A stretch of 64,000 nucleotides of DNA from Candidatus Dormiibacterota bacterium. Lineage in GTDB: Bacteria > Chloroflexota > Dormibacteria > Aeolococcales > Aeolococcaceae. Both the position numbers and the translations under genes were made by a program. Below are positions 1,086 through 20,935 of the stretch, one piece after another; the stretch's first letter is position 1; every line of letters starts with the position of its first letter. Location: NCBI GenBank assembly GCA_963748505.1, contig CAVVJH010000003.1:438960-502959 (forward strand), in the 5' to 3' direction. The notes beneath the pieces are model-generated. The model was not told where the DNA came from and ran no database searches. It was given only the letters and a program-made list of their open reading frames with translations.

Positions 1086-1186
1086 CTACCGTCTCCTGAC
1101 ACTGGGCACCCTGAGGTGAGCGCCCGATTCGCGCGCAATCGTGCACGATGCGATCGGGTTTGAGTGGGGTCAGCGAGTGCGCCGCT

Positions 1187-1909: not shown

Positions 1910-1946
1910 CGCGATCGATTGTGGCGACGCGCTAGGCTGCGTTGCG

Positions 1947-4488: not shown

Positions 4489-4498
4489 AGCGGGCGCG

Positions 4499-4528
4499 AT
4501 TGCAGGGTGCTATAGTGCGCAACGCAAT
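4499..4528 (+). promoter_or_regulatory. Putative PadR promoter/operator: imperfect inverted repeat ATTGCagggtGC-TATAGT-GCgcaacGCAAT centred on a TATAGT -10-like hexamer
   Basis: TATAGT lies at 4511-4516, 12 nt upstream of the PadR ATG, flanked by ATTGC...GCAAT arms. A short or leaderless transcript is implied. Confidence 0.35.
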
Positions 4529-6183: not shown

Positions 6184-6194
6184 GAGATCCGCTC

Positions 6195-6956: not shown

Positions 6957-6965
6957 GGAACGCTC

Positions 6966-7355
6966 TCAACTCCTGAGCGCGGGAGTGTTCTCGAAGCACG
7001 AGCGGACCACCGCGCCCAGCCCTGGGAGGCTGAAGGGCTTGGTGATCAGGTGGTTCGCTCCGGCGAGACGCGCGCGCTCCACGTCGGCATCCGCCGACAG
7101 CGAGGTGAAGACGAGCACCGGCATCGACTGCGTCTCCGGTTTGGCGCGGATGCTTCGACAGACCTCGATGCCGTCGACGCCCGGCATCATGACGTCGAGA
7201 ATCGCAAGGTCGAACTGCTCACTCTCGAGCACGGACAGCGCTTCGGTGCCGTCCTGTACCTCTCTGACTTCGAATCCTTCCATGCTGAGATACAGCCCGA
7301 CGACGTGCAGCAAGCGCGGTTCGTCGTCAGCGAGAAGGATGCGCTGCTGGGTCAA
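6966..7355 (-). CDS. Orphan response-regulator receiver domain (CheY-like, no output domain)
   Basis: TQQRILLADDEPRLLHVVGLYLSMEGFEVREVQDGTEALSVLESEQFDLAILDVMMPGVDGIEVCRSIRAKPETQSMPVLVFTSLSADADVERARLAGANHLITKPF carries the phosphoacceptor Asp and the T/K residues. A TTG start with a GGGAGG RBS fits better than the long ORF-track 5' extension. Confidence 0.7.
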   Translation of the reverse strand: MTQQRILLADDEPRLLHVVGLYLSMEGFEVREVQDGTEALSVLESEQFDLAILDVMMPGVDGIEVCRSIRAKPETQSMPVLVFTSLSADADVERARLAGANHLITKPFSLPGLGAVVRSCFENTPALRS

Positions 7356-7630
7356 CGGATGCGGCCTCCCGGGCGCGTGGACAGGTGCGTCATGCCAGTA
7401 TCGAGCGGGGCGCCCAATCGAATTGGGGGACCATCGTTCCGTCACCGGGCGGCGACATGTGGCCGAGGTGCGCGCGGCCGGGGACCCGACTGTGCTGGAT
7501 GATGGCGCGATGGTGGTCGAACGTGCGTCCGGCGAGCGAGGACTCACCGTCTGTGGCTGATCCCGACGCACCACGCCGCGGGACGCGGAGGATCCTCACC
7601 GAACCGCGGCGTCCGGCCTGGATCCGCGAG

Positions 7631-8959
7631 ATGCCCTCGGCACCCTGGCTCGCGGTGGGCACCGTCTGTGTCGGTGCGTTCATGGGGCAGCTCGACGCCA
7701 GCATCGTCACCACCGCGCTGCCATTCATCCAGGCCAACCTACACGCATCCATCGCTGCTGTCGAATGGGTCGTGCTCGTCTACGTGCTGGTGCTGGCTGG
7801 GACGGTGGCGGCCGTCGGCAAAATCGCCGATCGAATCGGCCGCAAGTTGCTCTACACGTATGGGTTCGCGATCTTCGTCGCGGGGTCCGCCGCGTGCGCA
7901 TACGCACCCTCGCTTGGACTGCTCGTGGCTGCGCGATTGGTGCAGGCGATCGGCGCTGTGATGCTGCAGGCGAACTCCTACGCGCTGATCCGTGATGTGT
8001 TGCCCACCTCGCGGCTCGGCGCAGGCCTTGGCATACAGGGTGCCGCGCAGGCGATTGGCTTGAGCGTCGGGCCGGCACTCGGCGGCGCGCTCACCGCCCT
8101 GGGTGGCTGGCGGCTCATCTTCCTGGTGAATGTCCCGATCGGCCTCATCGGGCTCGGGCTCGGATGGTTCCTGCTGCCGAGGAGCACCCATCACGACCGC
8201 GAGAGTCGCATCGATCCCTCGGGGACGCTGCTGCTCGCCGCGATCCCGGCCGCTGTCCTTGCGGGACTCTCGTTCGCCGCGCAGGCCGACAAACCCGCAT
8301 GGACCGAACCGGTATTGATCGGCATCGCGCTCATCCTCGTCATCGCGGCCGTGCTGCGGCAGCGAGGGGTGCCGGGCTCGGTGGTCGATGCAGCGCTGAT
8401 TCGGCTTCCTCCATTTGTCGCCGGCGTCAGCGCGGCCTTGCTCTCCTACACCGTCCTGTTCGGGTGCCTGGTCGCGGTGCCGTTCTCGCTCGAGAAGACC
8501 CAGCATGTCGGGGCCCTGACCGCCGGGCTGGAGCTGAGTGCGCTGCCGGTGGCGCTGGCGCTGGTGGCGCCGCTCGGCGGGCTGATCCGCGACCGGGTGG
8601 GGCCGCGGGTGCCGACCGGCGCCGGGATGCTGCTCACGGCCGCCGGCATGGGCGTGCTGGCGGCGTCGGAGACACGTCCGGGCCTGCTGGTCGTGGCGCT
8701 GGTCATCGCGGGCGCCGGGATGGGACTGTTCGTCGCCGCCAACAATGCCTCCACCATGTTCGCGGCGCCGCGACAACGAGCTGGCGCGGCAGGCGGGCTG
8801 CTCAACATGGCCCGCGGGCTGGGCACCGCACTCGGCGTATCGGTCACGTCGCTGGTGTTCGCCACCGGGCGAGGCTTGACCTCAGTCGCGATCCTGCTGC
8901 TCGCCATCGCGCTCCTGACCGGCGCGGTGAGCGTCACCTGGACAAGGTCCGGCGCCTGA
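7631..8959 (+). CDS. MFS transporter (DHA-type drug/H+ antiporter-like)
   Basis: About 14 TM segments with MFS motifs (GKIADRIGRK, LVQAIGAVM). Start refined to MPSAPW. Confidence 0.85.
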   Translation: MPSAPWLAVGTVCVGAFMGQLDASIVTTALPFIQANLHASIAAVEWVVLVYVLVLAGTVAAVGKIADRIGRKLLYTYGFAIFVAGSAACAYAPSLGLLVAARLVQAIGAVMLQANSYALIRDVLPTSRLGAGLGIQGAAQAIGLSVGPALGGALTALGGWRLIFLVNVPIGLIGLGLGWFLLPRSTHHDRESRIDPSGTLLLAAIPAAVLAGLSFAAQADKPAWTEPVLIGIALILVIAAVLRQRGVPGSVVDAALIRLPPFVAGVSAALLSYTVLFGCLVAVPFSLEKTQHVGALTAGLELSALPVALALVAPLGGLIRDRVGPRVPTGAGMLLTAAGMGVLAASETRPGLLVVALVIAGAGMGLFVAANNASTMFAAPRQRAGAAGGLLNMARGLGTALGVSVTSLVFATGRGLTSVAILLLAIALLTGAVSVTWTRSGA

Positions 8960-8971
8960 CGCGCGACTGAC

Positions 8972-10031
8972 TTAGCCCGGCTCCGCCGGATACCACCTTT
9001 CGGGCCGTCCAGGTTTGCGCCGCGCCCGGCCGGTGCTTTCCAGGAGGACGAGGTGGGCGAGCGTCTCCCCAACGGCGGCGCGCCGCATGAAACCGCGGAT
9101 CTGAACTCCAGTCCCGCGACCAGTGCATATGGAGGGTGATGTCCCAGCAGGTCGCGCCCGGCGATGCCGCGATGACGGCCGCTGCCTCATCGAGCCGGTT
9201 GCGGTGGTGAACGAGCAACTCGTCGACCCGTGCGTCCAGCCCTCGGAAGCGCCACTGATGGGCCGGAAGCACTTCATCAACGTCGAGATCGCGCACAGCA
9301 CGCAGCGCATCGAGAAAGTCGGCGAGCGGGTTGGTCGGCTGCTGCACGTGCACGGCCACGCTGGGGCTGATCCGCGGGAGGACGTGATCGCCGCTGAACA
9401 GCAAGCGTCCCCGCCGGTCGAGAAAGCAGACATGCCCTGGCGAGTGTCCCGGCGTGTGCAGAGTGACGAGATCCCAACCCGGGATCGCCACCGCCACGCG
9501 GTCCTCGAGCAGCACGTCGGGATCGGCGACGGCGACAAGCTCGCGAATCCCCAGCGACGCGCTGGTGAGATCGCCTCTGATTTCCTCGGGCACCCCGGCG
9601 ACGACCAGGAGATCGTCCATGTCGGCCATGAGCCGGTCCATGCCGGGTCCATATCGGCCCCCGATCAACGCCGCGTCGGCGGGGTGGAGCGCCACCCAGG
9701 CTCCGGATGCCTCGCGCAGCCGGCCCGCGAGTCCGTAGTGATCGGGGTGGATATGGGTGACCAGGATCGCCTGCACGTCGCTCGGCCTGTAGCCGGCGAC
9801 CGCCATCCCGGCCACGAGTTCGCTCCACGCCTCCTCGGTGCTCCACCCCGTGTCGATCACGGCGAGGCCGCGGTCGAGCTCGAGCAGGTAGACGAGGACG
9901 TAGCGCAGCGGGTTGTTCGGAATCGGCACGGGCACCGACCACAGGCCTGGGCGCACGCGCTCCACCTCCGGCAGCCCAACGGAATCCCAGGAGCGCCGCT
10001 GGGCGATCCCGGTGACTTCGACGCCGCCCAT
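8972..10031 (-). CDS. MBL-fold metallo-hydrolase (apparent frameshift near 9090)
   Basis: THIHPDHYG (HxHxDH), later His/Asp ligands, and HTPGHSPGH. The conserved C-terminus (...FMRRAAVGETLAHLVLLESTGRARR...) continues in a different frame that ends at 8972, so one indel is implied. It lies 11 nt downstream of the hydrolase gene stop, in an operon. Confidence 0.75.
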
Positions 10032-10041
10032 GCGTCCGGGC

Positions 10042-10857
10042 TCAGCCCCTGCCGGTCGGGTGAGCGTCGAGGTGGTCGAGCACCACGTCCGCAACATCGT
10101 CCCAGTGCTCGTCAGGGATCCAGTGGGAGCCACCCTCGAGCTCGAGCAGGTGGTAGTCGCCGGTGCAGTGCCTGGCGGTGAGCTCGGTTGCCTCGCGCGT
10201 GAACACGGGCTCCTGGTCTCCCCAGATATGCAGCACCGGGATGCTGACCGGACCGGAGGGCACGAGCTCGGTGCCCATCGCTCGATACCAGTTGAAGGCG
10301 CCGGTGGGGCCGATCGCTCGGAGTGCTGCCACGTCGCGATGCGCGTGTTCCGGGCTGAGCCCGGTGGCCGTGAACAGGGTCTCCGCGATGATCCCGCCCG
10401 CGGCCTCGAACAGCGTCTCGGCAACGTAGGGCAGGCGCACCGCGCCGATGTACGCGAGACGGACTCGCTGGTTCGCGCTGTGGAGCGCCTCGCGCAGCGC
10501 GGCGCTGTGGGGTGTGGCCACCGCGATCAGCGACGCCACGCGCTCGGGATGCGTGCCCGCGAGGGTCCAGGCCACAACGCCGCCCCAGTCGTGGCCGGCG
10601 AGGTGGAAGCGCTCGCGTCCCAACGCTGACGCGATGGCGAGCGCATCCGCGGCGAGCTCGCTCATCCGGTAGGCGTCGACCTCGGCTGGGTACGCACCGG
10701 CCGAATACCCACGCTGGCTTGGTGCGACCGCACGGTAGCCCGCCGCCGCAAGCGTGTTCAGGGCGTTGTGCCAGCAACTCCCGGTCTGCGGGAATCCGTG
10801 CAGCAGCAGGACCAGCTCGCCGCTCGCGGGACCCGCGACGAGCGCGTCGAAGCGCAT
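10042..10857 (-). CDS. Alpha/beta-fold hydrolase
   Basis: HGFPQTGSCW, nucleophile elbow GHDWGG, and a C-terminal His. Start refined to MRFDALV. Confidence 0.85.
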   Translation of the reverse strand: MRFDALVAGPASGELVLLLHGFPQTGSCWHNALNTLAAAGYRAVAPSQRGYSAGAYPAEVDAYRMSELAADALAIASALGRERFHLAGHDWGGVVAWTLAGTHPERVASLIAVATPHSAALREALHSANQRVRLAYIGAVRLPYVAETLFEAAGGIIAETLFTATGLSPEHAHRDVAALRAIGPTGAFNWYRAMGTELVPSGPVSIPVLHIWGDQEPVFTREATELTARHCTGDYHLLELEGGSHWIPDEHWDDVADVVLDHLDAHPTGRG

Positions 10858-10963
10858 GCCCCGTGCCGCTATGGTCGTGCGTCGAACCGCCACTGCGACC
10901 CAGCGTAGCAGGCACGGCGCGCATCCAATCCGCGCACCGGCCGGCATCCTGCACCATGCGGAC

Positions 10964-11758
10964 ATGACCGACGCGCTGTTCACGCCCGACAAGGCTCGAT
11001 ACATGCCCAGCGACCACACGAGAGGTCCCTGGGACCGCGCGGCGATGCATGGCGGTCCACCGGCGGCGCTGTTGGGCCGGGCCATGGAGTCGCTGCCCAC
11101 GGATATTCCGATGATGGTGGTCCGCACCACCGTGGAGATCTTCCGTCCGGTTCCACTCCGGCCGGTGGAGATCAAGGCTCGCATCGAGCGTGAAGGACGC
11201 CGCGTCCAGTTGCTGAGCGCGACGCTCACTGACGGCAACACCGAGCTCTGCCGGGCCACTGCATGGCGCATGCGCACCGCCGAGCTCGGTCTCGATGGGA
11301 CCGAGTCCGCGATGCCGTTGACACCTCCCGCGGAGTCGATGCCCCACGTCCCCGAAAGCGACGATCCCGCATTCCACCGCACCGGCGTTGAAATGCGCTA
11401 CGCGCACGGCTCCTTCGCCGAACAGGGTCCGGCCGCGGCGTGGATCCGCCTCGCGATGCCGCTCGTCGCCGGTGAGACGCCGTCCCCGTTGCAGCGCACT
11501 CTCGCCGCTGCCGACTTCGGCAACGGTGTCAGCTCAGCGTTGCCCTGGGGTCAATTTCGCTTTATCAATACCGACCTGACCGTCTACCTGCACCGCCTGC
11601 CCGACGGCGAGTGGGTGTGCCTCGACTCCGCAACCGTGGTCGAGTCGCGCGGCATCGGTCTCGCGCAAAGCCAGCTCTACGACGAACGGGGAACGGTGGG
11701 TCGCTCCCTGCAGGCCCTGTTCATCGACCGTGTCACGACCGCGCCGCCTGGTATGTGA
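10964..11758 (+). CDS. Thioesterase-like (hotdog fold, acyl-CoA thioesterase TesB-like) protein
   Basis: MTDALFTPDKARYMPSDHTRGPWDRAAMHGGPPAALLG... resembles thioesterase-superfamily/TesB-like proteins. It is divergent from the hydrolase-MBL pair. Confidence 0.6.
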   Translation: MTDALFTPDKARYMPSDHTRGPWDRAAMHGGPPAALLGRAMESLPTDIPMMVVRTTVEIFRPVPLRPVEIKARIEREGRRVQLLSATLTDGNTELCRATAWRMRTAELGLDGTESAMPLTPPAESMPHVPESDDPAFHRTGVEMRYAHGSFAEQGPAAAWIRLAMPLVAGETPSPLQRTLAAADFGNGVSSALPWGQFRFINTDLTVYLHRLPDGEWVCLDSATVVESRGIGLAQSQLYDERGTVGRSLQALFIDRVTTAPPGM

Positions 11759-11783
11759 TCCGCTGACGATCAGGTGGTTGGGA

Positions 11784-12368
11784 TCACGCGAGCCATCCCC
11801 AACTCGACGCCATCGTGGCAAGGTCCGCTTCGCCCTTCGAACGCAGGGCCGGCGCCACATCCAACTCAACGACGTACACGACCGCCTCGTGCTTGACGAG
11901 GATGTCTTCCTGGATATTCGAATCCCCCGCATCTGCGTAGCTGAACTCCGCCTCGAGCCCGCTCTCGCTGCCGACTGCGATGGCGCGTGCGTGTTGCAGC
12001 CCGACGACGTTCGTCACGCCTTTTGGAATGCCGACAAGATCGAGGGCCAATGCCGAGAGCGTGAGCGTCGACGCATTCTTGAGCCCTTCACTCTGGAGCG
12101 CTGCAATGGGGATCGTGGTCACCGAGATACCGATGGCGCCGGTCACCGGAATCCCCAATGGGCTGAGGGTGCCCTTGGAAGCAAGGGCATACCGCGTGGC
12201 GCCGTGGACCTGGGTCACCTGCTTGCTCCATCCGCTGGGATACGCGGCGATGAACGTTGAGTCGCTGAGCCGCTGTCCCTGAGATTGAGGGATGCCGGTG
12301 GCGGCCGCGGTGGAGGCTGCACACGCGGTCAAACCCAACGCAGCGCAGGCGGTCACGATCCGGAGCAT
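11784..12368 (-). CDS. Lipoprotein of unknown function
   Basis: Signal peptide with lipobox (LTAC); mature part has no recognisable domain. Confidence 0.6.
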   Translation of the reverse strand: MLRIVTACAALGLTACAASTAAATGIPQSQGQRLSDSTFIAAYPSGWSKQVTQVHGATRYALASKGTLSPLGIPVTGAIGISVTTIPIAALQSEGLKNASTLTLSALALDLVGIPKGVTNVVGLQHARAIAVGSESGLEAEFSYADAGDSNIQEDILVKHEAVVYVVELDVAPALRSKGEADLATMASSWGWLA

Positions 12369-12493: not shown

Positions 12494-13204
12494 TCAGGCC
12501 CCGAGCAGGGTCTGCACGCGTGGGTCGCCGCGGATGGGCGTCAGGTCCGGGTCCTCGAGTGCGAAGGGCACGAGGTCAGGGCTGACGCGCAGCGCTTCGC
12601 GCAACAGCGGGAGCGCCTCCTCGGCGCGTCCGTTGCGCGCGTAGAAACAGGCGAGGTTGTAGTCGGCGATCACCTGCTCTTCGGGGAAGAGTTCGACACC
12701 GATCTGATGCGCCCACAGGGCGACCGCCTCGGCGCCCTCGGGATCGTCATGCTCGCCAGCCCAGGAGGACACGTGCTGGGCGACATGTCCGTGCCCGTTG
12801 CCGGGAATGAGATGCCAGAGCGCTGAACCCTCCGGCCGCTCCCGAAGCAGGTCGTCCGCGCTGCTCGCGGCCACTGCCTCCCTCAATGCTGCGTAGCTCG
12901 TGGTCACGCCGGCACGAACGTCGGCCGCCGTGTCGTCGCGGTGCGCCTCGTAGATCACCGCGTTGCGCGCGTCCAGGTCGCGATCGTCAACCGGTCCCTC
13001 GGGCTCTTCGCCGCGGCCCACGGATTGCAGGATGTGTGCCGCGTGTTCGCGCCAGGCGTTCAGATGCGCAACGTTGTCCTTCGCCGTCCACTGCCCGGCC
13101 ACCGGCGCCGGCTGGTCATCACACAATGCGATCAGCGCCTCTTCCTGGGCGCGCGCACGATCGAGCGATTCGAGCAGGCGGTCGCGGAGCGATGCTTCGG
13201 TCAC
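12494..13204 (-). CDS. DinB-like four-helix-bundle domain protein with C-terminal TPR-like tail
   Basis: WTAKDNVAHLNAWREHAAHIL and downstream His residues fit the DinB_2/MDMPI_N-like fold. C-terminal LACFYARNGRAEEALPLLREAL is TPR-like. Its GTG start overlaps (GTGA) the stop of the upstream nuclease-helicase gene, indicating translational coupling. Confidence 0.6.
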   Translation of the reverse strand: MTEASLRDRLLESLDRARAQEEALIALCDDQPAPVAGQWTAKDNVAHLNAWREHAAHILQSVGRGEEPEGPVDDRDLDARNAVIYEAHRDDTAADVRAGVTTSYAALREAVAASSADDLLRERPEGSALWHLIPGNGHGHVAQHVSSWAGEHDDPEGAEAVALWAHQIGVELFPEEQVIADYNLACFYARNGRAEEALPLLREALRVSPDLVPFALEDPDLTPIRGDPRVQTLLGA

Positions 13205-16200
13205 GCGGGCAGCATAACGGCGCCCACCGCGACATCGCTCCACTCCGCTGCCATCTCGACGTACCGGCAGAGCGCATTGACCAGTCGCATCTGCTCCGGC
13301 GTGTGACAGCGGGCGCGGAGCAACTCCGGTGAGCACACCAGCACGGACACGCCGCGTGCGCGCGACACGGCGACGTTGAGCCGGTTGAGACTGAACAGAA
13401 ACTCGAGGTTTCGCGGCAGGTCCAGGACGCTCGAGGTCGCCATGGAAAAGATGCTGACCGCAGCTTCCTGTCCCTGGAAACGGTCGACAGTGCCGACGCG
13501 TGCGCCGGCTGGCAACGCTTCGACCAGACACGCCACCTGCGCGTTGTAGGGCGCGACCACGACGATGTCGTCGAGCGTCAGGCGGCGCTCCGCACCTGCG
13601 CCGTCTCGCCAGATGGACCCGGTGAGTTGATCGACGATCTCGCGGACCCGCGAGGCTTCCGCCTCGGAGTGCACACGGTCACCGGTATGCACGACCTGCG
13701 CCGTGCGCAGGCCGGTCAGGAGGTTGCCATCGTCGAGCACTGCCTGCGTGGCGCACGAGGGCTCCGAGCCGAGCCTGCCGCCGTAGAACGAACGCGACAC
13801 GAAGGCGCAGACGTCCGGATGCATACGCCAGGTGCGGTCCAGGAGCACGCCGCGGTCGGGCGCGATGGTCACGTCATCACCGAGCAGATGGTCGAGCGCC
13901 GAGACACCGACACCGGGCGGGTGACTTCCCTGCAGCGGCTGCGCAAGCTGGCGTGGGTCGCCGACGAGCACCAGGTGCTGTGCCGCACGTGAGACCGCGA
14001 GCACGTCGGCCAGCGACATCTGGCCCGCCTCGTCGACGATGAGCGTGTCGAAACGCTGCTCGACGCCGGGGCGCGCGAAGTGCCACGAGGTCGCGCCGAC
14101 GACGTCGACGGCAGCATCGTCGAGTGCGGTTTCGACGTCGCCATTCGTCCTCGCCATCCGAATGCCGTCGGTGCCGTCCCCCGATCCGCGCAGATGGAGC
14201 ATCCGCGGCATCCAGCCGCGTGCCGGTGCCAGCTCCTCGACTTTGGCGAGGAGTGTCCGGATCGCGTTGTGCGAGAGCGCCGTCACGCCAATCGGCCCGC
14301 GACCCTGCTGCAGCAAGGCAAGGATCGCTTCCGCAGCGGTATGCGTCTTCCCGGCGCCGGGTGGGCCCTGGATCGGCAGACAGCCCTCGTCGAGCGAGAG
14401 GATGAGCCGGATCGCCGCCGCACTCGCTGACTCGTCCGGCTCGCGGGTCGCACACCCGGCACCGTTGAGCAGTCGCGGCGGTACGCGAAGCAGCAGATCT
14501 CTCGCGGGCCGCCAGTCGCCATCAGCGGCGATGCCGTTGGCGACGATCCACCTGCCGAGGTCGAGCAACAACTCCTGCTGCGCGTTGGTCGGAATCGGCC
14601 GCGAGGGAATCAAGAACCGCACGAGGCCCGAACGCGCATTGGCAGCGGTGCGCGACAAGGTGACCTCCCCGCGGCCCGAGTCGATCTCGATCACCTCCCC
14701 GACGGCGGTTGCGCCGCCGCTCCTGGTCTTCGCTTGCGGATCGAGCGGGTTGTCACCGCTGCTGATGTGGTGCTCCTGAGGCTCGAACCGGTAGCGCTCG
14801 ATAAGACGCCCGTCCTGATCGTGGGAGCCGATCAAGGTGAGGGGTCCGAGCGCGTAGGTGTCGCGCTCGAGTTCTTCGGGAGTCATGGCGAGCTGGTCGA
14901 AGTGACGCCACCATCCAACCTTGCCTTCGCGACGGTGAAACGAGAGCAGGGGCGCGAGCAGCCCGGCCCCACGCTGCACGTCGTTGCGTTGCTCAGGGTC
15001 CTCGGGTATCGATGCGACCAGCGCGTCTGCAACCGCTTGCGTCGCGGCGATCTTCGCGTCCTGCGTTTCCGACGTCTCGTCGATCGTCACCGGACGCTCG
15101 ATCGGGGCGCCACGGAGCGCCTCCTCAGCGACACGACGTGACTCGAGCCAGTCGCGCAAGAGTTCAAGTCGAACTCGCAGTCGCGCTGGTTGTACAGAGC
15201 GATCTCGTCGAGGAGCGCACCGTCGCCGCTGCGGCCATCCTCCCGGCTGACCAGCCAGCGCTCGTACATCACCATGCTCCCCGCGGCATCGGCGATCAAC
15301 TCGACGCGCGGCGGCATGTAGAGCCGCTCCACTTTCTTGAGCGAATACGAGTCGGTGGAGAGGCGTATTCCCTGGCGGACCACGCGGTAGAGATCGACGA
15401 GGATCTCATTGCGCAGTAACCGGTCCACCTCCTCCTCGCGCGTGCCGTGACGGCTCATCAGCCGGCGCAACGCCGTCTTCTCGTAGGCGGCGTAATGGTA
15501 GATGTGCATGTCGGGAAAGCGATTGAGCTTCGCGATGGCGAAATCGACGAAATCCTCGAACGCCTGCCGTTCTCCGGCGTCGTCGTGCCCCCACCAGGCG
15601 GAGTACGTGCCGCCGGCGTCGACTGCCCCAAAGAGATACTCGAGGGGCGTATCGCGCGCAAGGCCGTCGCCCTCCATGTCGAAGAAGACATCTCCCGGCG
15701 ACGGCGCGGGCAGCGAGCACAGTCCGCGTCCCACCTCCCAGGCGTCGAGGAGTTGGTGGCGCGGCGAGCCATCGGAATACGGGCCCTCGTGCTGCAACGC
15801 CGCCTGGGCTCGTAGCTCACGAAACGTCGCCACGTCCATGTGCGCCGGCGGCTCCCGGTCGGGTGACTGCTGCGCGAGCGCGGTCATGGTCGGGATCCCG
15901 TCCGACCGGAGCGCGAGCACCTGTCCGGATCGCATGCGCGCGACCTGGGACAGATGGTCGTCCTCGCGTCGCCGCGCCACGCAGCCTGCGTTGTACCCGC
16001 AGGTGTTGCAGTGAGCGACCGGGTCTGGATAGGTTTCCCCGACCTCGGCGAGCATCGTGGACTCGAAATCGCGCTTGACGGTCGCGTGGTAGGCGGAGAA
16101 CTCATCCAGCCGATACGAATGCTCCACACCGTCGCCGAGGATGACGTGCAGCATCGCCGGTGTCAGCCCTTGCAGGCGCTCGAGATGCGCTGAGTATTCG

Positions 16201-16670
16201 CAGAGCTGCAGCAACGCCTCCGAGCGCACGCGGCGAGCCAGCTTCGCGTCGGCGGCTTCGTACGAGAACGGCCAGCGCGCACTCGGCGTCTCGACCCGGA
16301 TCAGGAAGTCTGCCCGGCCCATCCAGCGGCCGTCGAAGAAGGTGGGCTGGTAGATGACGTCGTAGCCGGCGCTCATCGCCTGGACGGTGTCGGCTTCGAG
16401 CGCGTGCAGCTCGGATGCCGAGCTCGCGAAGCGGTCCTGTTCGTCGTCGAACGCCTTGATGCGAAGGCCGCGAGCTCGGAGGGCCTCGAGATGGCCCTGT
16501 TCGTGCCCGGCGCCGAGCCGGGAGAGCACCTCGCTCAGCGCCGACTCGTCCCGCTCGATGACCTCGCCTCGTGCGGCACGCCGCTTCAGCGTCACCAGAT
16601 GGCCGCAGGCGAGGAAGTCGCAGAGGTCAGTCGCGGTGTAGACGGGCCTGCCGTCCTTGAGGAAGCGCAT
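13201..16670 (-). CDS. Cas4-like RecB-family nuclease (TM0106 family) + RNase H-like domain + SF1B (DNA2/Upf1-like) helicase fusion, about 1150 aa; one apparent frameshift near 15160-15180
   Basis: The N-terminal ORF (16670..15087) reads MRFLKDGRPVYTATDLCDFLACGHLV... with PD-(D/E)xK residues, an HCNTCGYNAGC Cys cluster and an RNase H-like DVFFDMEGD...IYHYAAYEK segment. The C-terminal ORF (15159..13201) carries helicase motifs GPPGAGKTHT, LIVDEAGQMSL and VAVSRARGVSVLV. The two ORFs overlap by 73 nt, and the conserved ...YNQRDC|RxxLELLRDWLE... junction is restored by a 1-nt insertion. Confidence 0.8.
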
Positions 16671-16919
16671 CAGCGCACCATCCTCGCGCGCCGGAGGCTG
16701 CGCTCGCGCGGCAGCGGCAGGCTGAGCTGACGGCTCGACCGCCGGTCCAGCGGCGCTCGATCGGGTGGCGGGCCGGCGATACCGGCGGGCCTGGTCGAGC
16801 GCGTGAATGCCGAACGCGAAGAGGTCCGACCTCGCTGCGAGCAGCGCCTGAGCACGCCCGAGATAGGACCCTTCCGGAGGCGGTGCGGGAGTGACCATGC
16901 GGCGACCATGCCGCGAGGC

Positions 16920-16939
16920 CGCGACAGGTGCCTGTCGCG
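16920..16939. promoter_or_regulatory. Perfect inverted repeat CGCGACAGG-TG-CCTGTCGCG in the divergent intergenic region between the nuclease-helicase operon and the GNAT-WYL operon
   Basis: 9-bp arms with a 2-bp spacer, 14 nt upstream of the GNAT ATG. Candidate operator, possibly for the adjacent WYL regulator. Confidence 0.45.
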
Positions 16940-16952
16940 ATAGGGTGCGCGG

Positions 16953-17477
16953 ATGCCCGTGGAGATCGAAATCCGCCCCGTTCGCGCCGCCGAGTACTCC
17001 GCCGCGGGTGAGGCGACGGCCCTCGCGTATCAGGAGTTCGCAGCGTCGAGATCGCCGGGTTGGCACGCCTACATCGCGAGGATCGCCGACGTCGCCGCCC
17101 GGGCTGATCGGACCACCGTGCTGGTCGCACTCGCCGACGGCGTCATCGCCGGCTCAGCGACACTCGAGCTCGACCAGCGCATGAACGCATCAGCCGAACC
17201 ACTCGCAGGCGACGAAGCGCACCTCCGGATGCTCGGCGTCCACCCGGCCCACCGCGGGCGCGGCATCGGACGGGCCCTGGTGACAGCAAGCGTCGACCTG
17301 GCGCGAGCACGCGGAAAACGCCGCCTCACCCTGGACACGTCGCCGGTGATGCTCGCCGCCCAGAACATGTACGCAGGGATGGGCTTCACCGCGTCAGGCG
17401 CACACCGCTCACCCGACGGCGTCGACCTGCTCGGTTACACACGGGACATCGTGTCAGAGCCCTCGATGAATCGCTAG
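16953..17477 (+). CDS. GNAT-family N-acetyltransferase
   Basis: Acetyl-CoA binding motif RMLGVHPAHRGRGIGRALV. It sits 9 nt upstream of the WYL regulator, so it is probably co-transcribed. Confidence 0.85.
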   Translation: MPVEIEIRPVRAAEYSAAGEATALAYQEFAASRSPGWHAYIARIADVAARADRTTVLVALADGVIAGSATLELDQRMNASAEPLAGDEAHLRMLGVHPAHRGRGIGRALVTASVDLARARGKRRLTLDTSPVMLAAQNMYAGMGFTASGAHRSPDGVDLLGYTRDIVSEPSMNR

Positions 17478-17486
17478 GCTCATCGC

Positions 17487-18484
17487 GTGCCAGGCGACTA
17501 CGAGAAGGGAGAGAAGGAATACCGCGTCATCAAGCTCTTCACGCGCCTCTGCGAGACCGCGGTCGGCTTGTCGACGCGGCAGCTGGCCGATGAGCTGGAG
17601 GTCGATCAGCGAACCATCCAGCGCTACGTCAAGACGCTGCGCGACAGCGCCGGCATCGACATCGAGTCGCGTGGCGGCAAGTGGCGCATCGGCAAGCGCA
17701 GCCTGCTCCCACCGCTGCAGCTTGATCAGTATCAGGCGACCCTGCTCCTGGTGGCGGTTCGCCTGCTGCAGCAGGTCCGCACCGAGCAGGACCCGGCCCT
17801 CATCGGCGCCCTCGCGCAGCTGTCTCGCGCGCTGAGCATCCCGATCGTCAGCGAGTACCTCCTGAGCACGCTGGCCGCAGCCGAGCGACAGCCGGCGAAC
17901 AGCGCGCGCCTGAAGGTGGAGCGCGCGGTCATCGACGGGTTCGTACACCATCGCGAGGTCGAGGTCCGCTACGTCGACGGCCAGGGCCACGAGAGCAAAC
18001 GCGACCTCCGCCCCTACTTCATCCAGCCCACTGCCGAAGGCCGCCACATCTACGTGCTCGCTCTCGACTCGGTCTCACGGGAGGTGCGGTCACTGCGTCT
18101 CGATCGCATCCGCGACGCACGCGTCCTGCCGACGACGTTCACGGTTCCCGAGAGCTTCGACATCGACGCCGCCCTCGGCGCCTCGTGGGGATCTGGCAGG
18201 GTCAGGGTGGCGATCGAATCGTCCTGCGCTTTCCCGCCGCGGTGCGTCAGTGGGTGGACGAGAGCCCGTGGCCGCCGAAGACCAAGCGCAGGGATCTGCC
18301 CGACGGCAGCCTCGAGGTCCGGCTCGAGGTGTCCGGCGAAGCCGAGATGCGTCCCTGGCTGCTCCGATGGGGTGAGAACGTCGAGGTCATCGCGCCCGAA
18401 TCGCTGCGGACCTTCATGGCCCAGACCCACGCGGCAGCGGCGGCACTGTACGCGTCGAATCACGCCGATCGGGGTAGAAAATAG
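17487..18484 (+). CDS. WYL-domain transcriptional regulator (HTH-WYL-WCX), apparent -1 frameshift in a G-run at about 18185
   Basis: N-terminal HTH (LSTRQLADELEVDQRTIQRYVKTL), a WYL region (VEVRYVDGQGHESKRDLRPYFIQPTAEGRHIYVLALDS...LRLDRI), and a WCX domain read in the next frame (IWQGQGGDRIVLRFPAAVRQWVDESPWPP...LLRWGENVEVIAPESLRTFM). The frame switch falls at tcgtGGGGatc. Confidence 0.8.
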
Positions 18485-18488: not shown

Positions 18489-18890
18489 ATGGACGAGAAG
18501 ATCAAACTCACCGACGACGAATGGCGCCAGAAGCTGACCCCGGAACAGTTCAACGTGCTCCGTAAGGCGAGCACCGAGCGCGCATTCACCGGACAGTACG
18601 TGCACGTGGACGACAAGGGCGTCTATCACTGCGCGGGCTGTGGCGCCGAGCTCTTCAACTCCGACACCAAATTCAACTCCGGCACCGGCTGGCCGAGCTT
18701 CTACGAGCCGATTTTCGCGGGTGCGGTTGAGAAGCACCGCGACTGGAGCATGGGGCTCCCGCGCACGGAGATTCGCTGCGCAACCTGCGGCGGCCACCTG
18801 GGGCATGTGTTCAACGACGGACCGCAGCCCACCGGCGAGCGCTACTGCATGAACTCCTGCGCGCTCAAGCTGGAAAAGACCCCCAGCTGA
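18489..18890 (+). CDS. msrB: Peptide-methionine (R)-S-oxide reductase
   Basis: CxxC...CxxC zinc site (CAGCGAELF...CATCGGHLGHVF) and the catalytic RYCMNS motif. Confidence 0.9.
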   Translation: MDEKIKLTDDEWRQKLTPEQFNVLRKASTERAFTGQYVHVDDKGVYHCAGCGAELFNSDTKFNSGTGWPSFYEPIFAGAVEKHRDWSMGLPRTEIRCATCGGHLGHVFNDGPQPTGERYCMNSCALKLEKTPS

Positions 18891-20935
18891 TCACGCAGCT
18901 GGAGCCCTCGCCCAGGGCTCGCGCTGTCCTCGAACAGACCTTCGGCTTTGCCGACTTCCGCCCCGGACAGGCCGACGTCATCGCCGCGGCGGAGGCGCAG
19001 TCGGACGTCCTCTTCGTCGCCCCGACGGGCTCCGGCAAGAGCATCGCCTACTGGGTGCCGGGGGTTGTCGGCGGCGGGCTGACCCTGGTCGTGTCACCGC
19101 TCATCGCGCTGATGGTCGATCAGGTCGCCCGTCTCAACGCGTTGGGCATTCCGGCCGCCTGCCTGCACAGTCAGGTGAGCGCCGCGACGCGGGCGGAGGC
19201 CATGCGTGCCGCCGTGGCGGGCGAGTTGCGGTTTCTCTACCTCGCGCCGGAGCGGATCGGCGCGCCCGGCGTGCTCGACAGCCTCGGCAAGCTCACGGTC
19301 GCGCGCTTCGTCGTTGACGAGGCGCATTGCATCTCGAGCTGGGGGCACGACTTCCGCCCCGACTACCGTCGCCTCGGGGACGCGATCACGGCCTGCGGCC
19401 GGCCGCCGGTCGGCGCGTTCACCGCGACCGCGACGCCGCGGGTTCGACAGGACATCGCTGCGAGCCTCGGGCTGCGCAGCCCCGTCGAGCGCGTCAGCGG
19501 ATTCGTGCGCGAGAACTTGACGATGTCCGTGGTGCGCTGCCGCGGTGCGGCGGAGAAACGCAGCGCACTCGCGGGACTGGTCCGTCGCGGCAGTGGCCGC
19601 GCACTCATCTACTGCGGCAGCCGCAAGACGACGGAGAGCGTGACCGAGACGCTCTCCGTGGCGGGCGTATCCGTCGCCGCGTACCACGGAGCGCTCGACG
19701 GCGACACGCGGCAGCGCGTTTACGAGCGCTACGCGTCAGGCGCTCTGCACGTCATCGCAGCCACCTCGGCGTTCGGGATGGGAGTCGACTTTCCGGATAT
19801 CCGCCGCGTCATTCATCACGATTTCCCCGGGAGCATCGAGGAGTACTACCAGCAGGCGGGGCGAGCGGGACGAGACGGCGAGCCGTCCGAATGCATCCTG
19901 CTCTACAGCGCCGCGGATCGACAGCTGCAGGAGTTCTTCATCGAGCAGGCATTCCCGGAGCGCGACACGGTCCGTTCCGTGTATCGCGAGTTGTTGCGCG
20001 AGGGCAGCGATGCCATCGATGACTGGGACCGTCGCGGCGTCGCTGCCAATGCAGCGCGTGCCGCGCTGGACCTTCTCCGCCGCGCCGGCGTGATCCAAAC
20101 CGACGGCAGCATCCGGCGGCTGACCGGCGCGCCGGTCGACTTCGACGAGCAGGCCCTGCTCAAGGCCAACGCCTACGCGCGCGTCAACCAGGTGATGGAC
20201 TACGCGGGCTTTCGCGGCTGCCGCCATGCGCGCATCGCTGATTATTTCGGCGAGGAGGGCGTCGCGAGGACCTGCCACGCCTGCGACAACTGCCTCGACG
20301 AGAACCGCACGGCCCTGGTGGTCGTCGATCCGGCCGATGTCGCCGCAGTGCTCGCCTGCGTGGCGAGATTCGACGGCCACCTCGGCGGCGTCCGGCTCGC
20401 GTCGATCCTTCGCGGCACCACCGACACCTGGACATCGTCGCGTCAGTGGGTCACCGAGCTGGCGTTTTTCGGCGCGCTGCGCACGTGGGACCTGGAGCGG
20501 ATTCGCGATCTGCTCGAGCGGCTTGTCGAAGTCGGCTGCGTCAGCCGCGGGCACGGCGAAAAGCCCACCCTCGGTATCACCCAACGCGGCAGCGCGGTGC
20601 TGCGCGGCGACGAGGATGTCGAAGTGGATATCGCCGTACTGTCGCGACGCCCGCAGCCGGCAGGTCGCGTCAAGGGTTCCGGCGGCAGCGCACTCGACAG
20701 CGATGCCAGCGACCTGGTCCGCGCGCGCTTCGAGGCGCTGCGAGGCTGGCGCCTCGAAGTGGCACGTCGTGCCCAGGTACCGCCATACGTCGTCTTTCAC
20801 GACCGCACGCTCGCGGAGATTGCGCAGCGACGGCCGGGTTCGATGGCGGCGCTGGGAACCATCGCCGGAATCGGACCCGCAAAGCTGGACCGTTACGGCG
20901 AGCTGGTCCTCACCGTCCTCCGCGACGGCGACTGA
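18887..20935 (+). CDS. recQ: RecQ-family ATP-dependent DNA helicase (5' end uncertain: no canonical start codon upstream of the conserved N-terminus)
   Basis: In-frame from about 18887: LEQTFGFADFRPGQADVIAAAEAQSDVLFVAPTGSGKSIAYWVPG (motif 0 and Walker A), DEAHCISSWGHDFRPDY, a Zn-binding CxxC...C, RQC, and a C-terminal HRDC (LRGWRLEVARRAQVPPYVVFHDRTLAEIA). The ORF-track start (GTG 19055) would delete Walker A. The open frame begins after a TGA at 18728 and contains only CTG/ATC candidates. Confidence 0.75.
   Translation: MITQLEPSPRARAVLEQTFGFADFRPGQADVIAAAEAQSDVLFVAPTGSGKSIAYWVPGVVGGGLTLVVSPLIALMVDQVARLNALGIPAACLHSQVSAATRAEAMRAAVAGELRFLYLAPERIGAPGVLDSLGKLTVARFVVDEAHCISSWGHDFRPDYRRLGDAITACGRPPVGAFTATATPRVRQDIAASLGLRSPVERVSGFVRENLTMSVVRCRGAAEKRSALAGLVRRGSGRALIYCGSRKTTESVTETLSVAGVSVAAYHGALDGDTRQRVYERYASGALHVIAATSAFGMGVDFPDIRRVIHHDFPGSIEEYYQQAGRAGRDGEPSECILLYSAADRQLQEFFIEQAFPERDTVRSVYRELLREGSDAIDDWDRRGVAANAARAALDLLRRAGVIQTDGSIRRLTGAPVDFDEQALLKANAYARVNQVMDYAGFRGCRHARIADYFGEEGVARTCHACDNCLDENRTALVVVDPADVAAVLACVARFDGHLGGVRLASILRGTTDTWTSSRQWVTELAFFGALRTWDLERIRDLLERLVEVGCVSRGHGEKPTLGITQRGSAVLRGDEDVEVDIAVLSRRPQPAGRVKGSGGSALDSDASDLVRARFEALRGWRLEVARRAQVPPYVVFHDRTLAEIAQRRPGSMAALGTIAGIGPAKLDRYGELVLTVLRDGD

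What the first reader, a model, noticed from the sequence alone, without database searches (positions are those of the whole stretch)
12494..18484. Candidate WYL-controlled nuclease-helicase module: a giant Cas4-like nuclease / RNase H-like / SF1B helicase gene coupled to a DinB-like+TPR gene, divergent from a GNAT-WYL regulator operon
The sequence shows an about 1150-aa protein. It combines a Cas4/RecB-type PD-(D/E)xK nuclease carrying a 4-Cys cluster, an RNase H-like (DnaQ-like) segment and a DNA2/Upf1-like SF1B helicase (TM0106-type architecture). Its stop overlaps (GTGA) the start of a DinB-fold protein with a TPR-like tail. Across a 280-bp intergenic region lies a GNAT-WYL regulator-msrB-recQ string. 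WYL regulators are established sensors that control DNA-damage regulons (PafBC, DriD) and anti-phage systems (BrxR, CapW). Nuclease fused to SF1 helicase is also the architecture of known defence proteins (Nhi-like). Whether this pair is a defence system or a damage-inducible repair module is open. The coupled DinB/TPR partner is not part of any described system that I recognise.
Basis: partly seen in the sequence, partly recalled or inferred. Interest (0 to 1): 0.75.

Follow-up and report, generated by a model that had tools for sequence, protein, structure and literature searches.

The report
WYL-regulated nuclease-helicase stress operon, Dormibacterota
A soil bacterium of the uncultured phylum Dormibacterota carries a probable DNA-damage sensor gene placed back to back with an operon for a large, uncharacterised DNA-cutting and DNA-unwinding enzyme; this is a new variant of a known kind of stress-response locus, and this copy of the sequence contains several reading-frame breaks.

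Summary
The big protein has a Cas4-like iron-sulfur nuclease, a DEDDy exonuclease and a Dna2/Upf1-like SF1B helicase. Its stop overlaps (GTGA) the start of a DinB-fold/TPR gene. It lies divergent from GNAT-WYL-msrB-recQ, and a perfect 20-bp palindrome sits at 16920-16939.

Three corrections are needed:
- The roughly 1150-aa protein is split into two ORFs here (indels at 15164 and 15173).
- The WYL gene is also frameshifted (18187-18190). Relatives have both genes intact, and other genes in the window carry similar indels, so these are probably assembly errors.
- The "280-bp intergenic region" encodes a conserved small protein of about 82 aa that is translationally coupled to the nuclease-helicase. 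The real divergent spacer is 54 bp.

The conserved core is GNAT-WYL, operator, small ORF and nuclease-helicase. It persists in Dormibacterota relatives with different flanking genes. The DinB/TPR gene is optional. Outside this clade, 78 of 80 nuclease-helicase loci lack all partner genes.

The operator half-sites (CGACAG) match the DriD consensus, and most DriD ssDNA-contact residues are kept. SiwR, a WYL activator divergent from DinB-like genes, is a published analogue.

The best reading is an ssDNA-triggered genotoxic-stress operon. Anti-phage defence is not excluded.

The parts
12494..13204 (-). DinB-fold / TPR-tail protein of 236 aa. GTG start. Optional third gene of the operon.
13201..16670 (-). 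Nuclease-helicase (NH), 1155-1156 aa when repaired. Domains: Cas4-like 4-Cys PD-(D/E)xK nuclease, DEDDy exonuclease, helical/beta-barrel linker, and SF1B helicase. It is broken in this window.
   Evidence: Two ORFs are listed. Invariant residues are C22/C221/C224/C230, D121/D141/K143/Q155/Y159, D331/E333/D426/Y493/D497, the GPPGxGKT Walker A motif and the DEAGQ Walker B motif. Orthologues of 1153-1167 aa are intact.
15160..15176 (-). Frame break inside NH. There are two 1-nt insertions relative to relatives, at 15164 and 15173.
   Evidence: Removing both insertions restores DCESTELLRDWLE, which matches the family motif.
16670..16898 (-). Conserved small ORF of about 77-82 aa. Motifs are YLxRAQALLAARxDLF and RQLxLPLPRERxxRRARMVR. 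Its stop overlaps the NH ATG (TGATG). It carries a 1-nt insertion near 16816 in this window.
   Evidence: It is present in all 20+ related loci, with the frame kept and indels in whole codons. The third codon position is the most variable (0.33/0.31/0.49). It has no Pfam match.
16905..16910 (-). -10-like hexamer CATGGT (consensus cAyCGT). It lies 9 nt from the operator and 6 nt before the small-ORF ATG, which implies a leaderless transcript.
   Evidence: C, A and T are invariant at this position in the alignment. The spacing is fixed in 19 of 21 loci. Promoter function is inferred.
16920..16939 (.). 20-bp palindromic operator CGCGACAGGCACCTGTCGCG. The core is GCGACAG-N5-TGTCG.
   Evidence: Positions 2-8 and 14-18 are invariant in 13 distinct sites. 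There are no matches in 81 unrelated loci.
16941..16946 (+). -10-like hexamer TAGGGT (TAnnnT). It abuts the operator and lies 6 nt before the GNAT ATG.
   Evidence: Relatives have TACGGT, TATCGT or TAAGGT. Function is inferred.
16953..17477 (+). GNAT acetyltransferase of 174 aa. It is the first gene of the regulator operon.
   Evidence: Pfam Acetyltransf_1 at 68 bits. It is conserved next to WYL in all core loci.
17487..18484 (+). HTH_11-WYL-WCX transcription factor, 332 aa when repaired. There is a 1-nt deletion in the G-run at 18187-18190.
   Evidence: The best PDB relatives are DriD (8tp8, 1.5e-16) and PafC. Orthologues are intact.
18489..18890 (+). msrB (methionine-R-sulfoxide reductase, SelR).
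   Evidence: Pfam SelR at 169 bits.
18890..20935 (+). recQ, 681 aa. It probably starts at an ATC codon that overlaps the msrB TGA.
   Evidence: A complete DEAD domain is obtained only if translation starts at 18890. Helicase_C, RecQ_Zn_bind, RQC and HRDC are all present.

Best explanation
This is a locally regulated genotoxic/oxidative-stress module of one Dormibacterota clade.

Regulator and operator. A homodimeric HTH-WYL-WCX regulator of the DriD/SiwR/PafBC type binds the 20-bp palindrome. The palindrome sits in the 54-bp spacer between two divergent promoters that are probably leaderless.

Trigger (inferred). Single-stranded DNA produced by damage binds the WYL/WCX cleft and switches the dimer to its active state.

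Activated operon (inferred). The operator lies at about -41 to -22 of the left promoter, which has no -35 element. From there the regulator recruits RNA polymerase. One translationally coupled mRNA is made: small ORF, then NH (TGATG overlap), then DinB/TPR (GTGA overlap).

Autoregulation (inferred). The same site abuts the -10 element of the GNAT-WYL-msrB-recQ promoter, so the regulator also controls its own operon.

The enzymes (inferred).
- NH works like a bacterial Dna2 with an added proofreading-type exonuclease. The SF1B motor moves 5'->3' on ssDNA. The iron-sulfur Cas4-like nuclease and the DEDDy 3'-5' exonuclease trim flaps, blocked ends or broken ends.
- The His-triad DinB/TPR protein is probably a thiol- or metal-dependent detoxifying or adduct-removing enzyme.
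- MsrB and RecQ add protein-oxidation and DNA repair functions.

Shown: gene content, domains, catalytic residues, gene overlaps, conservation of the core and of the operator, and similarity to DriD.
Inferred: ssDNA sensing, activation, leaderless promoters and substrates.
For: Architecture and catalytic residues:

Core conservation:
- The core is kept with the original flanks in L001, L003, L007, L083 and L201, and in 14 metagenome loci.
- It is also kept where flanks differ, in L202, L203/204 and L208.

Operator:
- GCGACAG-N5-TGTCG is invariant in 13 distinct sites.
- Its spacing to both -10-like hexamers and both start codons is fixed.
- It is absent from 81 unrelated loci.

Similarity to DriD:
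- The half-site CGACAG equals that of the crystallised DriD site ATACGACAGTTACTGTCGTAT (PMC10853764).
- The DriD base-contacting residues R37/T38 align to invariant R42/T43.
- Six of nine DriD ssDNA-contact residues are kept (PMC9186387).
- DriD sites replace the -35 element at a fixed distance from the -10 element (PMC13004042).

Published analogue:
- SiwR is an ssDNA-sensing WYL activator divergent from DinB-like genes, with a palindrome in a spacer of about 60 bp.

Repair and redox theme of the partner genes:
- msrB and recQ are in the regulator operon here.
- msrA lies near the module in L084 and L202.
- Lhr, RecQ, MDMPI/DinB_2 and MsrB surround a WYL paralogue in L209.

Context:
- The locus is stable and chromosomal, with housekeeping flanks.
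- No phage genomes carry NH.
Against: - There is no expression, binding or enzymatic data.
- The operator spacing is CGAC-N8-GTCG, against N7 for DriD, and the centre is GC-rich rather than AT-rich.
- Three DriD ssDNA contacts are not kept: R176, W206 (which is L in the window) and R288.
- Only one operator copy is visible, so nothing shows a wider damage regulon.
- ssDNA-sensing WYL regulators also control defence systems (CapW; PMC11662680).
- NH relatives sit on 69 plasmids, some next to defence-like genes. A few genomic NH loci neighbour Zorya, DISARM, Dpd or BREX-type proteins.
- The leaderless promoters are inferred from geometry alone. The sigma-70 consensus scan finds nothing.
- In this window NH, the small ORF and WYL are all out of frame.
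Confidence: 0.55

Rival explanations
1. The locus is an anti-phage or anti-plasmid defence gene. On this reading NH is a single-protein nuclease-helicase immunity factor in the manner of Nhi, possibly working with the small ORF. A CapW/BrxR-like WYL repressor keeps it off and releases it when infection or DNA damage produces ssDNA.
For: - WYL regulators are common next to defence systems, and CapW senses ssDNA (PMC9122601, PMC11662680).
- The NH helicase part matches the PADLOC models MkoA (1e-44), MkoC and DpdJ.
- NH relatives occur on 69 plasmids, 26 of them conjugative. Neighbours there include SNF2/VapBC/integrase/HNH, a helicase operon, or a multiubiquitin-E2-E1 cluster.
- Some genomic NH loci neighbour ZorA, DrmD, DpdE/F, BrxH, SngA/C or ZacC-like proteins.
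- NH has been lost from L084/085.
Against: - No PADLOC model covers the whole protein or defines a system here. The matches are helicase-domain only, and there is no PLD partner as Mokosh requires.
- The Dormibacterota locus is stable and vertically syntenic, with housekeeping flanks and no integrase or island.
- The operon partners are MsrB, RecQ and a DinB-like enzyme.
- The WYL protein matches DriD and PafC among solved structures. No BrxR or CapW chain is matched at E<=0.01.
- Most of the roughly 75 immediate neighbours of distant NH genes are ordinary metabolic or transport genes.
- There are no homologues in 50,697 phage genomes. The few IMG/VR hits lie at contig edges.
Confidence: 0.25
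2. There is no functional module. On this reading the WYL protein only autoregulates its own GNAT-WYL operon through the palindrome. NH, the small ORF and DinB/TPR are merely neighbours kept by slow genome rearrangement in this clade.
For: - 78 of 80 NH loci from other lineages lack WYL, GNAT and DinB.
- DinB/TPR and NH each occur alone.
- Much of the surrounding region is syntenic as well.
- DriD homologues carry a site about 17 nt upstream of their own start codon. That matches the 13-nt distance to the GNAT ATG.
- The WYL paralogue in L209 has no NH nearby.
Against: - The core arrangement survives changes of both flanks (L202, L203/204).
- The distances from operator to the -10-like hexamer and to the small-ORF start are fixed at 9 nt and 21 nt in 19 of 21 loci. 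Such constancy would not be expected if only the GNAT side mattered.
- The spacer is only 54 bp, so any protein on the operator necessarily overlaps the left promoter.
Confidence: 0.12
3. In this particular genome the module is decaying. On this reading the frameshifts in NH, the small ORF and WYL are real inactivating mutations and not sequencing errors.
For: - Three of the five frameshifted genes found in about 23 kb belong to the module.
- The indels are private to the window relative to two independent relatives.
- NH has demonstrably been lost in L084/085.
Against: - Indels of the same kind hit unrelated genes, Lactamase_B at 9105 and Inositol_P at 25253.
- NH is the largest target in the region.
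- Other megabase-scale assemblies also show truncated NH fragments of 685-840 aa (P0081, P0084, P0086). That is typical of indel errors in long-read assemblies.
- Apart from the indels, the coding sequence shows no stops or decay. The repaired NH is 92% identical to L201 over its full length.
Confidence: 0.15

Closest known systems
SiwR with msmeg_1357-56 of Mycobacterium smegmatis (Keller et al. 2023, PMC10693628)
   Same: Both have a WYL-domain transcription factor encoded divergently from an operon that includes a DinB-superfamily protein. Both have a very short spacer (about 60 bp there, 54 bp here) holding a palindrome of about 19-20 bp that overlaps the -10 to -35 region. SiwR senses ssDNA and is induced by genotoxic and oxidative stress.
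   Different: The SiwR targets are two small DinB-like proteins only. Here the main target is a 1155-aa nuclease-exonuclease-helicase preceded by a small ORF, and the DinB-like gene is optional and carries a TPR tail. The regulator here is co-transcribed with GNAT, msrB and recQ. Orthology to SiwR was not tested. The phylum also differs.
DriD of Caulobacter crescentus
   Same: DriD is the best solved-structure match (8tp8, E 1.5e-16) and has the same HTH-WYL-WCX layout. The operator half-site CGACAG is identical to that of the DriD consensus site. The base-reading Arg-Thr pair of the recognition helix is kept. Six of nine ssDNA-contact residues are kept. In both, the site lies where a -35 element would be and close to the regulator's own start codon.
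   Different: The half-site spacing is one base longer (N8 against N7), and the centre is GC-rich. Identity is low and significant only over the WYL-WCX part. Only one site is visible here, whereas DriD has a multi-gene regulon (didA, recA, recJ, bapE, dnaG). The target genes are unrelated.
Eukaryotic Dna2 nuclease-helicase
   Different: NH has an extra DEDDy (PolB-type) exonuclease domain between nuclease and helicase. Sequence similarity to Dna2 is limited to the helicase (E 1e-7), and TM-scores are only 0.37-0.40. The NH nuclease is closer to Cas4. No RPA-type partner is known.
TM0106 family RecB-like putative nuclease (TIGR03491); NCBI annotates full-length relatives with this name
   Same: The N-terminal 509 residues match the full model at 224 bits. 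NCBI gives full-length relatives this name.
   Different: The name covers only the nuclease and RNase H-like half of the protein. No member appears to have been characterised. Full-text searches for TM0106 returned nothing relevant.
Nhi and Mokosh (MkoA) defence helicase-nucleases
   Same: They also combine an SF1 Upf1-like helicase with a nuclease function. The helicase part matches the PADLOC MkoA model at 1e-44.
   Different: The matches are to the helicase domain only. There is no PLD nuclease or MkoB partner. The nuclease types differ, the locus is not in a defence island, and no defence phenotype is known.

Membership tests
TM0106 family RecB-like nuclease (TIGR03491) | Full-length match to the family HMM above the curated cutoff | tested here: met
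   224.1 bits against a cutoff of 97.45. Residues 12-509 cover model positions 2-462 of 462. The sequence tested was the repaired one.
Cas4/RecB-type PD-(D/E)xK nuclease with iron-sulfur cluster | Catalytic D...D/ExK and QxxxY motifs, plus one N-terminal Cys and a C-terminal CxxCx5C | tested here: met
DEDDy 3'-5' exonuclease (RNase_H_2, PF13482) | Pfam match above the gathering score and the DxE...D...Yx3D acidic residues | tested here: met
SF1B Upf1/Dna2-like helicase (AAA_11/AAA_12) | Both Pfam halves above threshold, with Walker A, Walker B and arginine-finger motifs | tested here: met
Dna2 orthologue | Sequence-level orthology over both nuclease and helicase, with the same domain set | tested here: not met
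   Only the helicase aligns by sequence (E 1.4e-7). NH has an extra DEDDy domain. TM-scores are 0.37-0.40. NH works like Dna2 but is not a member.
HTH-WYL-WCX transcription factors | N-terminal HTH, central WYL domain and C-terminal WCX domain | tested here: met
   HTH_11 scores 33 bits, WYL 38 bits and WCX 60 bits, all above the gathering scores. The sequence tested was repaired at 18187-18190. Orthologues of 332 aa are intact.
DriD-type ssDNA-activated activator | Palindromic CGAC-N7-GTCG operator at the -35 position and near its own start codon | tested here: inconclusive
   The half-sites are identical (CGACAG), but the spacing is N8. The position fits: centred at about -31.5 for the left promoter and 13 nt from the GNAT ATG. 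The promoters themselves are inferred.
DriD-type ssDNA-activated activator | Conserved ssDNA-contact residues in the WYL domain and linker | tested here: inconclusive
   Six of nine are kept or conservatively replaced: Y162, R172, Y189, R201, R204 and W237. Three are not.
DriD-type ssDNA-activated activator | ssDNA binding and transcription activation | not testable with these tools
   This needs EMSA or fluorescence polarisation, and in vitro transcription.
SiwR-like WYL/DinB module | WYL transcription factor divergent from an operon containing a DinB-superfamily gene, with a palindrome in a short spacer | tested here: met
   The layout is met in the window and in 20+ relatives. It is compared with PMC10693628. 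Orthology of the regulator to SiwR was not tested.
DinB/YfiT-like four-helix-bundle superfamily | DinB fold and His triad | tested here: met
TPR end-of-group domain (NF047558) | HMM match above the cutoff at the C-terminus | tested here: met
   60 bits against a cutoff of 32, at residues 182-234.
Known anti-phage systems (PADLOC v2.0.0) | Full-length match to a system protein, plus the required partner genes | tested here: not met
   There are only partial helicase-domain matches (MkoA, MkoC, DpdJ). No PLD/MkoB, Dpd or other partner genes are present. GNAT has no match, and DinB/TPR has only a weak one. Whether this library holds an Nhi model is not known to me.

The most novel reading that the evidence does not exclude
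The small ORF and the triple-domain nuclease-helicase may together form a previously unrecognised, ssDNA-inducible bacterial counterpart of Dna2-type end processing. Alternatively they may be a new single-enzyme defence factor. A DriD-like WYL sensor would switch it on through a DriD-like operator with +1 spacing. If so, this would be the first functional and regulatory handle on the TM0106 nuclease-helicase family, which has thousands of members across at least eight phyla and on plasmids and no characterised member. It would also show a LexA-independent damage response of the PafBC/DriD type in the uncultured phylum Dormibacterota.
Probability: 0.3. Interest if true: 0.65.

Novelty: new variant of a known kind. 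Interest (0 to 1): 0.45.

Why it matters
WYL regulators that sense ssDNA are emerging as a second, LexA-independent route to the bacterial DNA-damage response. PafBC, DriD, SiwR and an Acinetobacter regulator are examples. They also act as switches for phage defence.

This locus would extend that logic to Dormibacterota, a phylum with no cultured model. It would also link the regulator to the TM0106 nuclease-exonuclease-helicase, a large enzyme family that is widespread and has no known function.

The very compact, strongly conserved 54-bp control region makes the hypothesis directly testable. It contains one operator, two -10-like elements and two apparently leaderless start codons. A few oligonucleotides and one purified protein would suffice.

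The practical caveat is that this window's copy carries frame-breaking indels. Any cloning should therefore use an intact relative, for example the L201 or L001 sequences.

Tried and rejected
1. Programmed frameshift in NH or WYL: rejected. All relatives encode single intact ORFs, and the same kind of indel hits unrelated genes.

2. recQ truncated or frameshifted: rejected. This was my first impression. The frame is open back to the msrB stop. The gene is complete if it starts at ATC 18890, and L007 has ATG at that position.

3. NH-DinB/TPR as a family-wide two-gene system: rejected.
- tblastn on 80 genome loci found no such pairing outside the clade.
- All-against-all clustering of 2,484 flank ORFs found no neighbour shared by more than 9 loci.
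- Pfam scans of about 150 immediate neighbours found no WYL or DinB.

4. Mokosh, Dpd, Hhe or Gabija membership: rejected. The matches are to the helicase domain only.

5. The palindrome as a chance match or a terminator: rejected.
- An exact core match occurs once per locus, and only in syntenic loci.
- It lies between divergent start codons.
- The terminator scan found nothing there.

6. Literature on TM0106 and on Rv1251c. From memory, Rv1251c might be the mycobacterial homologue. The searches found nothing functional, and I could not verify the homology with these tools.

7. Exact-sequence look-up of the window's DinB/TPR protein: not on record.

8. Pfam search of the small ORF: no family.

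9. An early msrB query of mine was one base out of frame. MsrB presence in relatives therefore rests on the Pfam SelR calls and on the corrected query.

Full report
**What is in the sequence**

The window has 68% G+C. Its proteins match metagenome-assembled genomes of Candidatus Dormibacterota best.

On the minus strand:
- A 236-aa gene lies at 12494..13204. Its GTG start overlaps the TGA of the upstream gene, giving GTGA at 13204..13201.
In this window it is not one ORF. ORF 15087..17066 and ORF 13201..15159 lie in different frames.
- Relatives read ...YNxRDCE-ST-x-LLRDWLE... at the junction. Against both L001 and L201 the window has two extra bases, at 15164 and 15173. Removing them gives a 1155-aa protein that is 92% identical to the L201 protein and 88% identical to the L001 protein.

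On the plus strand:
- GNAT lies at 16953..17477.
- An HTH_11-WYL-WCX regulator lies at 17487..18484. It lacks one G in the run 18187-18190, so as written it reads on into the msrB frame.
- msrB lies at 18489..18890.
- recQ follows. It is intact if it starts at the ATC that overlaps the msrB stop.

**Are the frame breaks biology?**

I translated the 21 genes of L001 and searched them against the window. Four are split across frames: Inositol_P, Lactamase_B, NH and WYL. The small ORF described below is a fifth. The same private indels appear against the independent relative L201.

All relatives carry intact genes: NH of 1153-1167 aa and WYL of 332 aa. Several other megabase-scale assemblies show truncated NH fragments. 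Assembly indels are therefore the most likely cause, at about 80-85%. Real decay of the module in this strain remains possible. Only the reads can decide.

**Domain assignments**

For the nuclease-helicase (NH):
- The repaired NH matches TIGR03491 (TM0106) at 224 bits over residues 12-509. It also matches RNase_H_2 (328-509) and AAA_11/AAA_12 (751-1114).
- In 64 homologues the invariant residues include three sets.
  - The Cas4/RecB set: C22, D121, D141, K143, Q155, Y159, C221, C224 and C230.
  - A complete DEDDy set: D331, E333, D426, Y493 and D497.
  - The helicase Walker A and Walker B motifs and the arginine finger.
- An AF2 model of the 88%-identical orthologue is confident, with pLDDT 89.5 and pTM 0.87.
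- Foldseek ranks Dna2 nuclease-helicase first, with a co-linear alignment at E 1e-27.

For the partner protein:
- It has a high-confidence DinB fold, with pLDDT 92.8.
- It has an invariant His triad (H47, H140, H144) and a TPR end-of-group tail at 60 bits.

**A missed gene and the real control region**

The supposed 280-bp intergenic region encodes a small protein. In every related locus an ORF of 76-86 codons starts 21 nt from the palindrome and ends with a TGA that overlaps the NH ATG (TGATG). This holds in all but L208. Conserved motifs are YLxRAQALLAARxDLF and RQLxLPLPRERxxRRARMVR. Indels come in whole codons, and the third codon position is the most variable (0.33/0.31/0.49). It has no Pfam family. 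In the window, a 1-nt insertion near 16816 fuses its first part in frame to NH. That explains why ORF listing extends the NH ORF to 17066.

The gap between the divergent start codons (16898 on the minus strand, 16953 on the plus strand) is only 54 bp. At its centre lies the perfect palindrome CGCGACAGG-CA-CCTGTCGCG (16920-16939).

- In 21 loci (13 distinct sequences), positions 2-8 (GCGACAG) and 14-18 (TGTCG) never vary.
- A TAnnnT hexamer abuts the palindrome on the GNAT side, 6 nt before the GNAT start codon.
- A cAyCGT hexamer lies 9 nt away on the other side, 6 nt before the small-ORF start codon.
- The core pattern occurs once in the window, once in each syntenic locus, and never in 81 unrelated loci.

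The geometry implies two leaderless divergent transcripts. The operator would lie at about -41 to -22 of the left promoter and at about -33 to -14 of the right one. This is inference, since no transcript data exist.

**Is it a conserved module?**

Starting from NH:
- A scan of one genome per species returned 80 loci from Dormibacterota, Chloroflexota, Acidobacteriota, Actinomycetota, Bacteroidota, Alphaproteobacteria, Eremiobacterota and others.
- Only the two closest loci (74% identity) have DinB/TPR, GNAT, WYL, msrB and recQ.
- In the other 78, clustering of all flank ORFs finds no neighbour shared by more than 9 loci.
- Pfam scans of the immediate neighbours of those 78 loci find no WYL or DinB family.

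Starting from DinB/TPR:
- The family is small, with 119 clusters.
- In 80 metagenome loci, the 25 most similar members (45-66% identity) all have NH directly upstream.
- All 14 of those with enough DNA also have the small ORF, GNAT and the operator.
- The 55 more distant members (38-46%) have none of these.

Exceptions are informative:
- L084/085 keep GNAT-WYL-msrB-recQ, the operator, the small ORF and DinB/TPR, but have lost NH.
- L203/204 and L208 keep GNAT-WYL, the operator, the small ORF and NH, but have no DinB/TPR.
- L086-088 have DinB/TPR next to Ldh and MoxR/VWA genes.

The core survives with different flanking genes in L202 (acetate kinase and phosphoketolase) and in L203/204 (peptide ABC transporter, PAS-GGDEF-EAL). 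At least twelve further WYL/NH pairs share contig lengths in the two homologue tables.

My conclusion is that the conserved unit within this Dormibacterota clade is GNAT-WYL, operator, small ORF and NH. DinB/TPR, msrB and recQ are accessories. NH elsewhere is a stand-alone gene.

**What the regulator resembles**

- Among solved structures, the WYL protein matches Caulobacter DriD best (8tp8, E 1.5e-16), then PafC/PafBC. No BrxR or CapW chain is matched at E<=0.01.
- The DriD consensus site is ATACGAC-N7-GTCGTAT, and the crystallised site is ATACGACAGTTACTGTCGTAT (PMC10853764). The operator here has the same CGACAG half-sites with one extra central base.
- DriD R37/T38, which read the conserved G, align to invariant R42/T43.
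- Of the nine DriD residues that contact ssDNA (PMC9186387), six are kept: Y162, R172, Y189, R201, R204 and W237. Three are not.
- DriD sites sit where a -35 element would be, at a fixed distance from the -10 element, in promoters that lack a -35 element. A site also lies about 17 nt before driD's own start codon. Both features fit this spacer.
- The closest published locus architecture is SiwR of M. smegmatis. It is an ssDNA-binding WYL activator divergent from a DinB_2/DUF664 operon, with a 19-bp palindrome in a spacer of about 60 bp. It is induced by H2O2, zeocin and other genotoxic stress (PMC10693628). WYL-controlled DinB-like genes are therefore already described.

**Repair or defence?**

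For repair or stress:
- The regulator's operon carries msrB and recQ.
- msrA lies beside the module in L084 and L202.
- A WYL paralogue in L209 sits among Lhr, RecQ, MDMPI/DinB_2 and MsrB genes.
- The locus is chromosomal, syntenic and flanked by transport, hydrolase and redox genes.
- NH is Dna2-like.
- No phage genome encodes NH, and the few IMG/VR hits lie at contig edges.

For defence:
- ssDNA-sensing WYL repressors such as CapW control immune systems.
- NH relatives (37-42% identity) occur on 69 of 72,556 plasmids. Some lie next to SNF2/VapBC/integrase/HNH genes, a helicase operon, or a multiubiquitin-E2-E1 cluster.
- A minority of genomic NH loci neighbour proteins that match ZorA, DrmD, DpdE/F, BrxH, Sng or ZacC models.
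- PADLOC gives only helicase-domain matches for NH and no system.

I put the damage or stress reading at about 0.55 and defence at about 0.25.

**Verdict**

A WYL-controlled nuclease-helicase module is well supported by comparative evidence within one Dormibacterota clade. The DinB/TPR coupling is optional and has a published precedent.
- It is a new variant of a known kind, namely WYL-regulated genotoxic-stress loci.
- It is moderately interesting because it gives a testable regulatory handle on a large uncharacterised enzyme family in an uncultured phylum.

Noticed in passing
window 16670-16898 (-): There is a conserved small protein gene of about 82 aa. It has an Arg-rich C-terminus and the motifs YLxRAQALLAARxDLF and RQLxLPLPRER. 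It lies in what looked like intergenic DNA and is translationally coupled to the nuclease-helicase (TGATG). It has no Pfam family and is retained even where NH is deleted (L084). Its function is unknown.
   Followed up: partly
window 18888-18892: recQ has no ATG, GTG or TTG start upstream of its Walker A motif. It most likely starts at an ATC codon overlapping the msrB stop (TGATC). The same ATC is present in L001, L003 and L084, while L007 has ATG at that position. Gene callers truncate the protein by 39-59 residues as a result.
   Followed up: partly
window 9105 and 25253 (also 15164, 15173, 16816, 18190): Frame-breaking 1-nt indels private to this window also split a Lactamase_B-fold gene and an Inositol_P gene. 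This amounts to about one indel per 3-4 kb of the roughly 23 kb compared with L001 (86% nt identity) and L201 (88%), and it points to assembly errors throughout the window.
   Followed up: partly
L084 7700-8010 and L085 (same region); L085 1042-1725: One Dormibacterota lineage has cleanly lost the 3.5-kb nuclease-helicase gene. The small ORF now ends 4 nt before the DinB/TPR start. L085 also carries an rve-family integrase gene (rve/rva_4) a few kb away and a broken msrB.
   Followed up: partly
L209 5013-5032: An operator-like palindrome, GGCGACAGCAGTCTGTCGCC, lies about 2 kb from a 57%-identical WYL paralogue that has no NH nearby. It sits between the 3' ends of an MDMPI/DinB_2 gene and a YceI gene. 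The locus also holds Lhr, MarR, MsrB and RecQ genes. This may indicate a second regulon or a different role for the motif.
   Followed up: no
L207 (Phenylobacterium plasmid pA) 2624-9357; L206 (Ensifer plasmid) 1-9363; L205 (Roseomonas plasmid) 1-11844: Plasmid-borne NH homologues sit co-directionally after other gene sets. In Phenylobacterium these are multiubiquitin, E2, ThiF-E1, DUF6527 and a hypothetical gene. In Ensifer it is a pair comprising a helicase-related gene and a 1034-aa hypothetical gene. In Roseomonas it lies among SNF2, VapBC, integrase and HNH genes. These may be defence-island contexts for the family.
   Followed up: no
L086-L088 and 55 loci of L111-L168: A second, more distant branch of the DinB/TPR family (38-46% identity, about 216-232 aa) is never next to NH or WYL. 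In L086/087 it lies between a lactate/malate dehydrogenase gene and MoxR-type AAA/VWA genes.
   Followed up: no
window about 2550-4490 (by synteny with L001 21525-23468): The neighbourhood holds further redox and stress genes: a thioredoxin-fold AhpC/TSA gene, a glutaredoxin-fused pyridine-nucleotide disulfide oxidoreductase, and another MDMPI_N/DinB_2 protein. This fits an oxidative-stress theme around the module.
   Followed up: no
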